Shown in pieces: positions 1 to 3,782 of a stretch of 64,000 nt of DNA. Both the position numbers and the translations under genes were made by a program. The notes below the pieces were generated by a model. The model was given only the letters and a program-made list of their open reading frames with translations, was not told where the DNA came from and did no database searches. Each line of letters begins with the position of its first letter. The first letter of the stretch is position 1. Origin of the DNA: Candidatus Colimorpha onthohippi (lineage in GTDB: Bacteria; Bacteroidota; Bacteroidia; Bacteroidales; P3); contig JAGHVA010000052.1 in assembly GCA_018064565.1 (NCBI GenBank), forward strand, positions 2,220-66,219, in the 5' to 3' direction.

Positions 1-1735
1 CCGTTACGATACCACCGATAGGCAAAATAAGGCACATAGTCATGATCTTCGCCATCGGGATAATGGTTCACAACCAAGAGATTGTTTTCGTACGTCCGCA
101 GTTGAGGCTTGTCATAATCAACAATGGTAAGATAAAGTGTCATCACACTGTCGCAACCTTGAAGCGTCTGAACCGAATCGGGCGAATGGTAACATCCCGA
201 CTGGTAAAACACCGACCCCATCCACCTGTAACTATAGCCCACTACCACATACACGTTGTCATGATACGATGGGTTGACCGTAAGAGAGACCACCTCCACA
301 CTGTCGCAGCCAGCGGCAGTCTGCCCCAACTGATACACAAAAGTGGTTGACTTGCGGTAAACCTGATCATCTATCCACCGAATGCTATCGCACACCGTAG
401 TGTCAACATCCAATCGGTACGAGTTGTCAATAATGATATCTGCATGCACTACGCTATCACAACCATACATCGATCGTAACGCACGTTGCAATCCCATAGT
501 CGTGGTGGTATAAGTACGGTTGTCTATCCACTGGTAACGGTTGCAGGCTTTGATAACCACCGACGTGTCGTGCGATGGATACACTTTAATATTCGTATTA
601 TGTATGCTGTCGCAACCATCAACGGAAGTATATGGAGTTTGCACTCTCGTGGAGGCGGTATAGTCTGTTCCTTGCCACGTCAGTGTATCGCATGCCGCTA
701 TAGTTGTGTCGTAACGATACACTGGCAGCACGGTAAGATCCAGTATAACCAAGCTGTCGCAACCCGCATGATTTCGCATGCGATAAGTAGCGGTGCCCGA
801 CTGCGCATAGACCATGCCGTGCCATTCAAACGGTCCGCACGACCGAGCGGCGGTGTCGCCCGTTGAATTGCTCGATATAGTCAACTGCAATATCGTCAAA
901 CTGTCGCAACCATATTGGTTTTGCGCCCTCGATGTGTAAGTGCCCGAACTCCTGTATATATTACCATTCCAGATATACTGATGACACGCAAATTGCGGGA
1001 TTGTGGTTGTATCGGTCGGCAAGATTCGTACATTGACCGCTGTGATACTATCGCAGCCATACACTGTAGTATCCGTAACCGAGAGCAACTGCGACTGCAT
1101 GATAGTGGTATCATGCCATGTGAAATGGTGACAGCCAGAACTATCGGAAGTATCATGATACGACGGATGTATCGTTAGATGCAACGTAATCGTAATTCCA
1201 CAGTCGTTGCTTGAGATAAGCTGTTGATATGTACCACTTTGTGTATAGACACTGTCTGCAAATGTATAGCTATCACATGCCGATATCGTTGTATCTATCT
1301 CGGGTATTAAACTTATGACGAGGTTCAATCGGACAACACTATCGCACCCATAGGCAGAATGCAACGAATCGACAGCAACAGTCGAAGTGCTGTAACTGTT
1401 GCCGTGCCACACATAGTCGTGACATGTGGTTACAGATGTATCTATTTGATAGTTTGGATATATCGCGACCCGATAGGTAACAGAACTATCGCACTGCCCC
1501 TCGACTGTGCGACCCGCAGACAAGGTAATATCCCGACTCTCGGTTATAGTATTAGTTCCTAAAATGAGTTGCTGGCAGGCTGGAGTATCAATCACAGTAT
1601 TTGCAGAATAGTTTACCGTTAGATATAATGTATTGACACTGTCGCACCCCATGTCGGTAATCAACGAATCGTAATACACACCCGAGGATTGAAGCACCTG
1701 CCCGCACCATGTGTAGCTGTCGCATACCGACTGAT
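1..1735 (-). repeat. In-frame tandem coding repeat, period 141-153 nt (47-51 aa), at least 11 copies
   Basis: The plus-strand motif CTGTCGCAACC or a close variant (reverse complement encodes GCDS) recurs at about 148, 301, 454, 607, 754, 901, 1048, 1198 (degenerate), 1339, 1486 and 1639. All spacings are multiples of 3. The protein modules follow C-x2-Y-x-W-x-G-x2-Y-x2-SG-x-Y-x(8-12)-GCDS-x3-L-x-L-T-[VI]. Confidence 0.8.
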
Positions 1736-3782
1736 TTTCTACAGTTCCGACTACCCCACTGCAATCCACTGGTATCCGCTCTGTACTGAACCCCAATACA
1801 TACCATTCATCTTGCTGGAGGACTCTGCGAATATCCGTATATGGGTTGTTTGTTTTGTACGTTCTTGACACCCATACTATTGTGTCGCCATCGGTTGACC
1901 TTTCTGTATATAGATAGCGCATACTCAACGAATCATAGATTGGGTATGATTCAATATCGATAGAGTCGGACATGGGAAAATGGGCAGCAGCAAAACATGT
2001 ATAGTCCAATACCTTGACTGAGATCCAAAACGTTTTGTTTGTCGTTATGTCATAAGGAGTGTCCAACTGAACCGTTTGCATACCTGCCTCTGTAGCTGTA
2101 TAACGCTGGCTATACACCAACTGCCCCATCACTTGATTGGGATAGCCCCAGCCACCATAACGCAAAGTATTATTCATCAAGCAGTTCTCGTATATCCGCA
2201 CTTCAAAATTTCTTCCACAAATTGACCACACATCAACTGTCTTGAAATGAACCTGTGTAACCCTATAACCACTGCAAAAATTACCAAATGTCTCTGGGCG
2301 GATAATCACTTCGTTGTTGGCAGTTATCTGCTTGTATTCACTCGTAACAACTGCAGAATCCGTGCCATGATAACCCACAGGGCTTGACGCTCCATTAGGT
2401 TGCGAGACAAGCACCGATTGCCGCTGACCGTTATGTTCTATTGTGACGACAGCAGTACGGTCGGCTCCACTATTGTTGCGTGCGGCACGAATCTTGAGCA
2501 TCGTAAACAAGCCGCCACCGCTGCCCGTAGTACAACTCAACGACAGCCAACTACCCGTTGACGATGCAGTCCATGCAGAGGAGCTCTGACTTGAGCTATG
2601 CACACAGATAGTGGCACTATCGCCCCAGCGGGAGAACTCCACGCTGTTGGGTGATACGCTGAATGCAATCTGTGTAGGTTCGATACCGAAGACAGCCTCA
2701 TTTCTAAGCGAGAAGTTATTGGTTGCATTAGTACCTACACCACCTCCTTGGGGTACAAGATTGCCTATGGCGAAAAAGCCATCATACGAGCCTCCCCAGC
2801 CCCAGTTAAAATGATACTTGCCATCACTGGCATATCCATCACACACAAAAGCATGACCCGTACTGACATCGTAACCACTATACAGCACTGGCCTACCAGC
2901 ATCTAAATCGGCTTGCAGCAACGAATCCCAAACAGACTCGTTATCACTCATACGCTTATACTCACAAGTATTTTTGTACCTAAAATTCGACTTGAAAGCA
3001 TTAGCAGCATAAATCATTGGAGCACCACTTTCATTTGGACCATAGTTCATCGACGCACTCACCCCACAATGATACATCAATTGCGCTACAGCATCTATCT
3101 CTTGCTGAGTGCTACTTGCCTTTAATTCCAACGGCATGTTGTTCCAATCATACGTAGTGTTCTCAAAATCGGCAGAGAGTTCTCTGTTACCAGCACTCCA
3201 TGTATAACTATGATTGCCTTGGCCTTGTATGGGCCATTTCCAATAGCGCAACACCTGAGCCATAGCAGTAGCTACGCAACCCGTGGGACACGTTACATCT
3301 CCTACCGATGGACACAGTTGATTATAGCGCGGACGCTGGTTCCAGATAGTTTGAATCAACGGTCCCACGATGACTCTAACTGGTTCAGAACCATCGCCCG
3401 CAAAAACCATATCCCAGGCATCTTGCATATCTTGACCATCATCGGACGCCAATATCTTGGCTATCTGATTGTCATAATCGGTAATCCACGACAACATGGC
3501 ATCGGGCAGTGGCAGCTGCACCGATGATGTCAGCGAGTAGCCTAATATCGGCATAATCCTGCTATCTGCCGACACCAATACAAAGCCACGCCCTTCATTG
3601 CCTACAAACAAATACTGGTGTTTTAACCCTAACTTCGCACCAACCTCTACAAGTTGGACGTCGGGACCTCCTTGCTGCGCAACAAAACGAGACGCTTTAA
3701 GATAGGCTTGACTTAACGATATAGGCGAGGCCCACATTACCTCAGACAATACCAAAAATAGAACCAATGCAAAACGACGCAT
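1..3782 (-). CDS. C10-family (streptopain/interpain-like) cysteine peptidase, large multidomain form; 3-prime end lies beyond the window start
   Basis: Not in the supplied ORF track because no stop codon is reached in-window. Manual translation of the minus strand from the ATG at 3782 (MRRFALVLFLVLSEVMWASP, signal-like) stays open for 1260 codons down to position 3. It contains the C10 nucleophile motif CPTGCVATAMAQVLRYWKWP, the His motif TGHAFVCDGY, NWGWGG, and a BACON-like segment (SSAWTASSTGSWLSLS...AVVTIEHNGQ). At least 11 tandem Cys-pair modules follow. Confidence 0.85.
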   Translation of the reverse strand, partial: MRRFALVLFLVLSEVMWASPISLSQAYLKASRFVAQQGGPDVQLVEVGAKLGLKHQYLFVGNEGRGFVLVSADSRIMPILGYSLTSSVQLPLPDAMLSWITDYDNQIAKILASDDGQDMQDAWDMVFAGDGSEPVRVIVGPLIQTIWNQRPRYNQLCPSVGDVTCPTGCVATAMAQVLRYWKWPIQGQGNHSYTWSAGNRELSADFENTTYDWNNMPLELKASSTQQEIDAVAQLMYHCGVSASMNYGPNESGAPMIYAANAFKSNFRYKNTCEYKRMSDNESVWDSLLQADLDAGRPVLYSGYDVSTGHAFVCDGYASDGKYHFNWGWGGSYDGFFAIGNLVPQGGGVGTNATNNFSLRNEAVFGIEPTQIAFSVSPNSVEFSRWGDSATICVHSSSQSSSAWTASSTGSWLSLSCTTGSGGGLFTMLKIRAARNNSGADRTAVVTIEHNGQRQSVLVSQPNGASSPVGYHGTDSAVVTSEYKQITANNEVIIRPETFGNFCSGYRVTQVHFKTVDVWSICGRNFEVRIYENCLMNNTLRYGGWGYPNQVMGQLVYSQRYTATEAGMQTVQLDTPYDITTNKTFWISVKVLDYTCFAAAHFPMSDSIDIESYPIYDSLSMRYLYTERSTDGDTIVWVSRTYKTNNPYTDIRRVLQQDEWYVLGFSTERIPVDCSGVVGTVENQSVCDSYTWCGQVLQSSGVYYDSLITDMGCDSVNTLYLTVNYSANTVIDTPACQQLILGTNTITESRDITLSAGRTVEGQCDSSVTYRVAIYPNYQIDTSVTTCHDYVWHGNSYSTSTVAVDSLHSAYGCDSVVRLNLVISLIPEIDTTISACDSYTFADSVYTQSGTYQQLISSNDCGITITLHLTIHPSYHDTSDSSGCHHFTWHDTTIMQSQLLSVTDTTVYGCDSITAVNVRILPTDTTTIPQFACHQYIWNGNIYRSSGTYTSRAQNQYGCDSLTILQLTISSNSTGDTAARSCGPFEWHGMVYAQSGTATYRMRNHAGCDSLVILDLTVLPVYRYDTTIAACDTLTWQGTDYTASTRVQTPYTSVDGCDSIHNTNIKVYPSHDTSVVIKACNRYQWIDNRTYTTTTMGLQRALRSMYGCDSVVHADIIIDNSYRLDVDTTVCDSIRWIDDQVYRKSTTFVYQLGQTAAGCDSVEVVSLTVNPSYHDNVYVVVGYSYRWMGSVFYQSGCYHSPDSVQTLQGCDSVMTLYLTIVDYDKPQLRTYENNLLVVNHYPDGEDHDYVPYFAYRWYRN

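What the first reader, a model, noticed from the sequence alone, without database searches (positions are those of the whole stretch)
1..3782. A 1260-codon gene is hidden from the ORF track: the first 3.8 kb is coding, not empty
The supplied track shows only short off-frame ORFs in 1-3800. The minus-strand frame starting at the ATG at 3782 has no stop down to position 3. It encodes a signal peptide, a complete C10 peptidase catalytic domain with the Cys and His motifs intact, a BACON-like module, a region of about 300 aa of unknown type, and a long repeat array. The gene is missed only because its stop lies outside the window. It would be the largest of three C10 paralogues here, and its in-window length already exceeds what I recall for characterised C10 enzymes such as SpeB and interpain.
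Basis: seen in the sequence. Interest (0 to 1): 0.6.

Follow-up and report, generated by a model that had tools for sequence, protein, structure and literature searches.

The report
Large secreted C10 protease on a stalk
The first 3.8 kb of the window is a real gene for a 1392-residue secreted cysteine protease of a rumen or herbivore-gut Bacteroidales bacterium; the enzyme part is ordinary, but it carries a rare lectin-like domain and eleven copies of a widespread, still unnamed small two-cysteine module.

Summary
Observation confirmed. The minus-strand frame from the ATG at 3782 is open to the window edge. On the contig it runs 397 nt further to a stop, giving 1392 aa. The ORF track missed it only because ORFs that run off the window are not listed.

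Interpretation largely confirmed:
- signal peptide, I69 prodomain and C10 peptidase (230 bits; Cys169 and His310 intact)
- BACON
- a T9SS type A sorting domain just outside the window
- it is the largest of three C10 genes in the window, and one of eight C10 loci in the genome

Refinements:
- The repeat is common in Bacteroidota T9SS cargo and greatly expanded here (at least 233 units in 40 ORFs).
- Each unit carries about two O-glycosylation sequons.

Best reading: a T9SS-exported, probably surface-anchored zymogen holding its protease at the tip of a glycosylated stalk. The gene is a new variant of a known kind and of moderate interest.

The parts
1..3782 (-). In-window part of the gene (codons 1-1260 of 1392). 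The remainder, codons 1261-1392 plus the stop, lies left of the window at contig C126:1823-2219.
3729..3782 (-). Probable Sec signal peptide, aa 1-18 (MRRFALVLFLVLSEVMWA). There is no lipobox Cys.
   Evidence: Read from the sequence. No signal-peptide predictor was available.
3462..3731 (-). Inhibitor_I69 (Spi-like) prodomain, aa 18-107
   Evidence: PF13734, 45.2 bits, cutoff 25. It also aligns to the zymogens of SpeB (1dki) and interpain A (3bb7).
2772..3344 (-). Peptidase C10 catalytic domain, aa 147-337. The Cys169 codon is at 3276-3278, the His310 codon at 2853-2855, and the NWGW motif starts at aa 326.
   Evidence: PF01640, 230.3 bits, profile 1-194 of 194; interpain A, E 1.9e-45, with Cys and His aligned. 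for positions.
2400..2663 (-). BACON domain, aa 374-461
   Evidence: PF19190 34.2 bits and PF13004 29 bits, cutoffs 25
1737..2399 (-). X domain, aa 462-682: a lectin-like jelly-roll beta-sandwich that is rare and associated with C10 proteases
87..1736 (-). Eleven tandem ~49-aa two-Cys beta modules, aa 683-1232. Consensus: C-x-S-Y-T-W-x-G-x-x-Y-x-x-S-G-x-Y ... G-C-D-S-[VILT]-x-T-L-x-L-T-I. The array carries 22 O-glycosylation sequons.
   Evidence: (pLDDT 90.1)
3..86 (-). Start of a conserved pre-CTD module (aa 1233-1320, continuing left of the window). It is shared with other repeat proteins of this genome and is unassigned.
   Evidence: 40-52% identity to the pre-CTD segments of six other ORFs; no Pfam hit

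Best explanation
The gene encodes a T9SS-exported zymogen of a C10 (streptopain/interpain-type) cysteine protease.

The proposed pathway has five steps:
1. The signal peptide takes the protein across the inner membrane.
2. In the periplasm the two Cys of each repeat unit form a disulfide, and the D-S/T-[AILMTV] sites are O-glycosylated.
3. The type A C-terminal domain is recognised by the PorV/SprA translocon.
4. PorU removes the CTD and links the new C-terminus to the cell surface.
5. The I69 prodomain is then cleaved to activate the enzyme.

Because anchoring is C-terminal, the order outward from the cell would be: pre-CTD module, eleven small beta modules acting as a glycosylated spacer or stalk, lectin-like X domain, BACON, and the protease at the distal tip. 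BACON and X would bind a glycan or glycoprotein target and position the protease on it.

Shown here: the gene, the domains, the intact catalytic dyad, the CTD, the T9SS core genes, the confident all-beta models and the sequon enrichment. Inferred: export, anchoring, disulfides, glycosylation, stalk geometry and substrate.
For: - Gene: an open 1392-codon frame ending in a stop. Independent assemblies show no indels in it.
- Enzyme: C10, I69 and BACON all score above their curated cutoffs. Cys169 and His310 align with interpain A and SpeB.
- Secretion: the CTD hits TIGR04183 at 49 bits against a cutoff of 23, and PF18962. The genome encodes SprA (550 bits), PorV (444 bits) and PorU (506 and 411 bits on two contig ends).
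- Repeat model: the triplet has pLDDT 90.1 but pTM 0.55, which fits independent beads on a string.
- Repeat conservation: five of the six Cys are invariant across 76 aligned triplets and the sixth is at least 90% conserved.
- Repeat partners: the same module occurs in thousands of T9SS cargo proteins with type A or type B CTDs.
- Glycosylation sites: sequon density is 40 per 1000 aa in the array, against 3.8 genome-wide and 4.5 +/- 2.0 in shuffles. The residue after GCDS is sequon-compatible in 208 of 212 units. The motif definition is from PMC8550257.
- Precedent: GhpA is another T9SS cargo whose stem of small Ig-like repeats carries disulfides and apparent O-glycans (bioRxiv 10.1101/2024.01.29.577165).
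Against: - No expression, secretion or activity data exist.
- GldM_1st (PF12081) was not found in this 83.6%-complete genome.
- Interpain A, the closest solved relative, sheds its C-terminal extension to give a 28-kDa soluble enzyme (PMC2642729). The stalk could therefore be removed rather than used.
- Sequon compatibility after GCDS may simply reflect beta-strand preference for V, I, L and T.
- Fold similarity of X to lectin-like domains does not show glycan binding.
Confidence: 0.6

Rival explanations
1. It is a released, soluble protease. The protein is exported by the T9SS, but the whole C-terminal extension (BACON, X, repeats, CTD) serves only for folding and secretion. It is then trimmed off autolytically, as in interpain A, leaving a small free C10 enzyme.
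For: InpA (868 aa) is processed at both ends from 90 kDa to a 28-kDa mature form (PMC2642729). The catalytic domain here is 39-43% identical to paralogues that carry quite different C-terminal cargo, so the C-terminal part is interchangeable.
Against: The I69-C10-BACON-X order is conserved across about 25 cluster representatives, and 11-unit arrays recur in relatives. This argues for selection on the extension beyond a secretion role. Type A CTD cargo are typically surface-anchored after PorU cleavage (T9SS reviews PMC5445135 and PMC10202324, which I did not read in detail).
Confidence: 0.25
2. It is primarily an adhesin or surface-coat protein. The repeat array and lectin-like modules are the functional part, giving adhesion to plant fibre, mucus or other cells, or a glycan coat. 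The protease would be auxiliary or act only in self-processing.
For: The same repeat dominates 40 ORFs of this small genome. Most of these lack a protease, and some reach 4294 aa. In the wider database it is combined with many non-protease heads. GhpA and SprB are adhesive T9SS filaments built of small repeats (bioRxiv 10.1101/2024.01.29.577165).
Against: The catalytic dyad, the NWGW motif and the prodomain are all intact, and the C10 HMM match is full length. Eight C10 loci in a 2-Mb genome suggest that proteolysis itself is under selection.
Confidence: 0.1
3. It is not a functional gene, being either a silent relic or an assembly chimera of paralogous C10 and repeat genes.
For: The genome is a fragmented 280-contig MAG with many paralogues. 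No recognisable promoter lies upstream. Short-sided joints in the C10 region appear in the laid contigs.
Against: A 1392-codon open frame has a chance probability of about 10^-34. GC content matches the genome (47.1% against 46.2%). The contigs of X1 tile the whole gene at 95-100% identity with substitutions only, and three other studies cover parts of it. The joints have sides of 20-22 nt and are typical of paralogue cross-matches. All domains are intact and in the same order as in relatives from other samples.
Confidence: 0.05

Closest known systems
Interpain A (InpA) of Prevotella intermedia, MEROPS C10; PDB 3bb7/3bba
   Same: Best solved relative (E 1.9e-45). It has the same signal peptide, prodomain and C10 catalytic domain followed by a long C-terminal extension. 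The GCVATA Cys, GHAFV His and NWGW motifs are conserved. It comes from the Bacteroidales.
   Different: InpA is 868 aa with a 465-residue extension (PMC2642729). This protein is 1392 aa with about 1050 residues after the catalytic domain. I did not test whether InpA contains BACON, the X domain or the two-Cys repeat. No biochemical data exist for this protein.
Streptopain SpeB of Streptococcus pyogenes (type enzyme of C10; PDB 1dki)
   Same: The zymogen aligns over aa 38-369 (E about 1e-38). It shares the I69-like prodomain and the Cys-His dyad.
   Different: SpeB has no C-terminal modules and is secreted by a Gram-positive Sec route rather than by a T9SS.
Cwp84 of Clostridioides difficile (clan CA cysteine protease plus lectin-like domain; PDB 4ci7/4d59; Pfam PF18560)
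   Different: Sequence identity is 11%. PF18560 scores 14.8 bits against a cutoff of 27. A BACON domain lies between protease and X here. Cwp84 belongs to family C1A (my own knowledge), not C10. This is a fold-level resemblance, not family membership.
GhpA grappling hook and SprB: giant T9SS cargo of Bacteroidota built from small Ig-like repeats
   Same: Both have tandem small all-beta repeats ahead of a T9SS CTD. GhpA fragments are Foldseek's top hits for the repeat triplet (E 1e-5). The GhpA stem has disulfides and apparent O-glycans on every repeat (bioRxiv 10.1101/2024.01.29.577165).
Large predicted C10 proteins of Bacteroidetes (Thornton et al. 2010, PMC2873492)
   Same: That survey listed 84 candidates of 269-1656 aa. 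[quoted passage not shown]
   Different: This report assigns those extra parts for one clade: BACON, a lectin-like X domain, two-Cys modules, a pre-CTD module and a type A CTD.

Membership tests
Peptidase family C10 (Pfam PF01640, MEROPS C10) | Full-length match to the family HMM above the curated cutoff | tested here: met
   230.3 bits against a cutoff of 26, profile positions 1-194 of 194
Peptidase family C10 (Pfam PF01640, MEROPS C10) | Catalytic Cys and His at the positions of the interpain A / SpeB dyad | tested here: met
   Cys169 in TGCVATA aligns with the nucleophile Cys of 3bba, which is Ala in the 3bb7 mutant. His310 in GHAFV aligns with GHAFV of interpain A.
Peptidase family C10 (Pfam PF01640, MEROPS C10) | N-terminal inhibitory prodomain (Inhibitor_I69 / Spi-like) | tested here: met
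   PF13734, 45.2 bits against a cutoff of 25, aa 18-107
Peptidase family C10 (Pfam PF01640, MEROPS C10) | Proteolytic activity and autocatalytic activation | not testable with these tools
   This needs a recombinant enzyme assay.
T9SS type A cargo | C-terminal sorting domain (TIGR04183 / PF18962) | tested here: met
   TIGR04183 scores 49 bits against 23, and PF18962 scores 35.4 against 27, at aa 1321-1392
T9SS type A cargo | N-terminal Sec signal peptide | tested here: inconclusive
   The sequence MRRFALVLFLVLSEVMWA shows n-, h- and c-regions. No signal-peptide predictor was available.
T9SS type A cargo | T9SS machinery encoded in the same genome | tested here: met
   SprA 549.6 bits, PorV 444.3 bits, PorU 506 and 411 bits on two contig ends. 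GldM_1st was not found in this 83.6%-complete genome.
T9SS type A cargo | CTD cleavage and surface attachment | not testable with these tools
   This needs proteomics or fractionation.
BACON (PF13004 / PF19190) | HMM match above the cutoff | tested here: met
   34.2 and 29.0 bits against cutoffs of 25
Cwp84-type Lectin_like domain (PF18560) | HMM match above the cutoff | tested here: not met
   14.8 bits against a cutoff of 27, E 0.033. A profile of 31 relatives finds no PDB sequence at E <= 1.
Cwp84-type Lectin_like domain (PF18560) | Same fold (jelly-roll beta-sandwich following a clan CA protease) | tested here: met
Named Bacteroidota repeat families (SprB repeat PF13573, Ig_7 PF19081, PKD, HYR and others) | HMM match of the two-Cys repeat region to any Pfam-A or NCBIfam model | tested here: not met
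   Scanning aa 690-1260 at E <= 1 returned only noise: ACP_SdgA_C at E 0.27, blaCBP at 0.024 and a thiol peroxidase model at 0.46.
GhpA-type Ig-like stem repeats | Significant structural superposition of repeat units | tested here: inconclusive

The most novel reading that the evidence does not exclude
The 49-53-aa two-Cys module (C-x-S-Y-T-W ... G-C-D-S-[VILT]) may be an undescribed domain family restricted to Bacteroidota T9SS cargo. It would serve as a disulfide-stapled, obligately O-glycosylated stalk unit, and its most conserved motif would double as the general O-glycosylation sequon. Lineages such as this rumen or herbivore-gut Bacteroidales would have expanded it into a large share of their surface proteome. 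They would use it to hold out enzymes, here a C10 protease with a Cwp84-like lectin domain, at a defined distance from the cell.
Probability: 0.35. Interest if true: 0.6.

Novelty: new variant of a known kind. Interest (0 to 1): 0.4.

Why it matters
The gene call itself is routine: a window-edge ORF that any annotation pipeline would find on the contig.

Three points are of some value.

First, it gives a concrete domain map for the long C-terminal extensions of large Bacteroidota C10 proteases, whose role has been open since at least 2010 (PMC2873492).

Second, it defines a rare lectin-like domain that is almost exclusively tied to C10 proteases. This echoes the protease-plus-lectin arrangement of Cwp84.

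Third, it draws attention to an unnamed small two-Cys module. The module occurs in thousands of T9SS cargo proteins and takes up at least 1.6% of this 2-Mb genome. Every unit carries conserved O-glycosylation-type sites.

A family model for the module would improve annotation of many "hypothetical" giant proteins in rumen, gut and environmental Bacteroidota. The stalk-glycosylation idea can be tested directly by glycoproteomics.

Tried and rejected
- **Antibody hits:** a profile of the repeat against PDB sequences returned only antibody light chains at E 4e-5 to 1e-2. I judged these compositional (SG..YTLTI-like strings) and rejected them as homology.
- **ESM Atlas feature search:** both unexplained parts gave only unnamed clusters scoring below 0.9.
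- **Synteny:** of 80 dnaE-anchored loci from related MAGs, only L007 has a similar C10-X-repeat gene nearby, and it lies in the opposite orientation. No conserved position can be claimed.
- **Positional orthology:** comparing repeat units between 11-unit relatives gave no signal.
- **DNA-level tandem repeats:** none found, so slippage-driven variation is unlikely.
- **Transcription signals:** sigma-70-type promoter and terminator scans were no better than shuffles. No TAnnTTTG motif lies within 318 nt upstream.
- **Expression:** no RNA holder is listed among the public runs, so expression remains untested.
- **GldM_1st:** not found in the 83.6%-complete genome. This does not show absence.
- **Disulfide geometry:** model coordinates were not exposed to the script box, so Cys-Cys distances and module length could not be measured.
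- **Interpain A structure paper:** PMC2772895 is not held.
- **Literature on the repeat:** one full-text search for a description of the module found nothing relevant. This search was narrow.
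Full report
**1. Observation**

The minus-strand frame beginning at the ATG at window 3782-3780 translates to 1260 residues with no stop down to position 3. When ORFs that run off the source are allowed, the ORF lister shows it as 3..3815(-), 3'-open. By default such ORFs are omitted, which is why the track looked empty.

The window is bases 2220-66219 of contig C126 of a 2.04-Mb, 280-contig genome bin that is 83.6% complete. Fetching the 2219 bases to the left shows that the frame continues 397 nt to a stop at C126:1823-1825. 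The full product is 1392 aa.

From the composition of the coding strand, the chance of 1392 stop-free codons is about 10^-34. The gene's GC content (47.1%) matches the genome's (46.2%).

Contigs from four public animal-gut metagenome runs, counted by the tool as four studies, were laid on the gene. They differ only by substitutions. The single indel lies in the upstream spacer. One run tiles the entire gene, although it may be the source sample.

**2. Domain map**

| Residues | Feature | Evidence |
|---|---|---|
| 1-18 | Signal-peptide-like N-terminus, no lipobox Cys | read from sequence |
| 18-107 | Inhibitor_I69 prodomain | 45 bits, cutoff 25 |
| 147-337 | Peptidase_C10 | 230 bits, full profile |
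| 374-461 | BACON | 34 and 29 bits, cutoff 25 |
| 462-682 | "X" domain | unassigned by sequence |
| 683-1232 | Eleven ~49-aa two-Cys units | |
| 1233-1320 | Conserved pre-CTD module shared with six other repeat proteins of this genome | |
| 1321-1392 | T9SS type A sorting domain | TIGR04183 49 bits vs 23; PF18962 35 vs 27 |

The closest solved proteins are interpain A (E 1.9e-45) and the SpeB zymogen (about 1e-38). The nucleophile Cys169 (TGCVATA), His310 (GHAFV) and the NWGW motif all align.

The two other C10 genes in the window (751 and 879 aa) have the same I69-C10-BACON head but carry Cleaved_Adhesin/MAM-type tails. The genome has eight C10 loci in all. Two of them, on C41 and C61, share the X domain and the repeats with this gene at 33-42% identity.

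**3. The X domain**

An exhaustive HMMER search of 1.84 billion cluster representatives found only 47 proteins at E <= 1e-3. About 36 of these match the domain proper. In about 25 of them it follows I69-C10-BACON at the same position. A few relatives duplicate the BACON-X pair in tandem, and some short proteins carry X alone.

An AlphaFold2 model built on 31 relatives is confident, with pLDDT 90.3 and pTM 0.87. It is a jelly-roll beta-sandwich. Its structural matches rank as follows:

By sequence it does not qualify as PF18560 (14.8 bits against a cutoff of 27), and the profile finds no PDB sequence. It therefore resembles a lectin-like binding module in fold, but it is not a demonstrated member of that family, and no ligand is known.

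**4. The repeat**

The consensus is C-x-S-Y-T-W-x-G-x-x-Y-x-x-S-G-x-Y ... G-C-D-S-[VILT]-x-T-L-x-L-T-I, with a period of 49-53 aa. Five of the six Cys are invariant across 76 aligned triplets, and the sixth is at least 90% conserved.

No Pfam-A or NCBIfam model matches it, even at E <= 1.

A three-unit model is confident locally (pLDDT 90.1) but has pTM 0.55. It shows five short strands per unit, which fits beads on a string.

Shape neighbours in the ESM Atlas (TM 0.70-0.77 over about 145 residues) are unnamed Bacteroidota proteins or T9SS cargo with CHU_C or Por_Secre_tail domains.

The module is abundant and unevenly distributed:
- A capped word-index search returned more than 4,800 proteins. 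Most of those listed carry a type A or type B T9SS CTD.
- In the 128 proteins on hand there are 3,286 units, with a median of 25 per protein.
- In a sample of 301 Bacteroidota genomes the repeat was found in 27 (23 of 144 genera). It was present in every sampled genome of some families and in none of others.
- This 2-Mb genome has at least 233 units in 40 ORFs, which is at least 1.6% of its DNA. It also has the highest first-look candidate count of the genomes listed in that sample.
- There is no DNA-level tandem repeat, so the units are old and diverged.

**5. Glycosylation sites**

The general Bacteroidota O-glycosylation motif is D-(S/T)-(A/I/L/V/M/T) (PMC8550257). The array holds 22 such sites in 550 residues, or 40 per 1000 aa. 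This compares with 2.7 per 1000 in the protease part and 3.8 per 1000 in the genome's other long ORFs. Composition-preserving shuffles gave 4.5 ± 2.0, with a maximum of 14 in 2000 shuffles.

One site is the invariant GCDS[VILT] and the other is the inter-unit DT[T/A]. Across the aligned triplets the residue after GCDS is sequon-compatible in 208 of 212 cases.

This fits the apparent glycans seen on every stem repeat of GhpA (bioRxiv 10.1101/2024.01.29.577165). It could also reflect ordinary beta-strand residue preferences, so it remains a hypothesis.

**6. Context**

The core T9SS genes are present: SprA, PorV and PorU.

The closest dnaE genes, at 70-74% identity, come from uncultured Bacteroidales MAGs of rumen, deer, sheep and horse-faeces samples, next to Paludibacteraceae.

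The gene is the last in a same-strand run dnaE-GSCFA-ddl-C10 with gaps of 47-52 nt. No recognisable promoter lies upstream. This position is not conserved in relatives.

**7. Mechanism and rivals**

The best-supported reading (0.6) is a T9SS-exported, C-terminally anchored zymogen. Its protease, BACON and lectin-like head would be held away from the cell on a disulfide-stapled, glycosylated stalk.

The main rival (0.25) is that the extension is shed, as in interpain A. That enzyme matures from 90 kDa to 28 kDa (PMC2642729).

An adhesin-first role (0.1) and a non-functional or chimeric gene (0.05) are less likely, for the reasons given under each rival.

**8. Novelty**

The gene is a straightforward C10 family member, and the protein is already in public collections with its Pfam domains precomputed. 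Large C10 candidates of up to 1656 aa, with uncharacterised C-terminal domains, were noted in 2010 (PMC2873492). Relatives of this gene reach 3720 aa with 49 repeats.

What is new is the assignment of those extensions for one clade, the rare C10-linked lectin-like domain, and the unnamed two-Cys module with its sequons.

Nothing was found on other DNA.

Noticed in passing
Genome-wide (e.g. G000:C70:1227-14108 and C70:15071-23839, C108:5008-9735, C220:15989-26057): The two-Cys ~49-aa module occurs in 40 ORFs with at least 233 units. These include two adjacent giant ORFs of 4294 and 2923 aa. Together the units make up at least 1.6% of a 2.04-Mb genome, and the first-look candidate count is the highest among the genomes listed from a 301-genome phylum sample.
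   Followed up: partly
window 3783-9652 (minus strand): The C10 gene is the last of a tight same-strand run dnaE (9652-5732), GSCFA (5729-4872), ddl (4819-3830), C10 (3782-), with gaps of 47-52 nt. No TAnnTTTG promoter motif lies within 318 nt upstream. This suggests possible co-transcription of a secreted protease with housekeeping genes.
   Followed up: partly
window 16746-19979 (minus strand): A 1077-aa ORF whose only Pfam hit is a T9SS C-terminal sorting domain. The rest of the protein is unassigned.
   Followed up: no
window 9690-11945 and 12042-14681 (minus strand): Two further C10 paralogues (751 and 879 aa) have the same I69-C10-BACON head but Cleaved_Adhesin/MAM-type tails instead of X and the repeats. 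This shows modular swapping of the C-terminal cargo.
   Followed up: partly
P0122, P0127, P0128 (database relatives): One relative of 3720 aa carries 49 repeat units and two X domains. Two others duplicate the BACON-X pair in tandem after the C10 domain.
   Followed up: partly
G000:C124:1860-3356 and C85:6-1685: The PorU sortase gene is split across two contig ends. This is assembly fragmentation, not necessarily a broken gene. PorV lies directly downstream on C85.
   Followed up: no
window 3826 (L003:6045): A contig from run X1 lacks one base in the ddl-C10 intergenic spacer. This is the only indel variant seen across the laid region.
   Followed up: no
L007:17705-21055 (rumen MAG RUG417): The only dnaE-linked locus among 80 relatives with a similar C10-X-repeat gene (43% identity in the protease part). 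It lies 4-7 kb downstream of dnaE, but on the opposite strand.
   Followed up: partly
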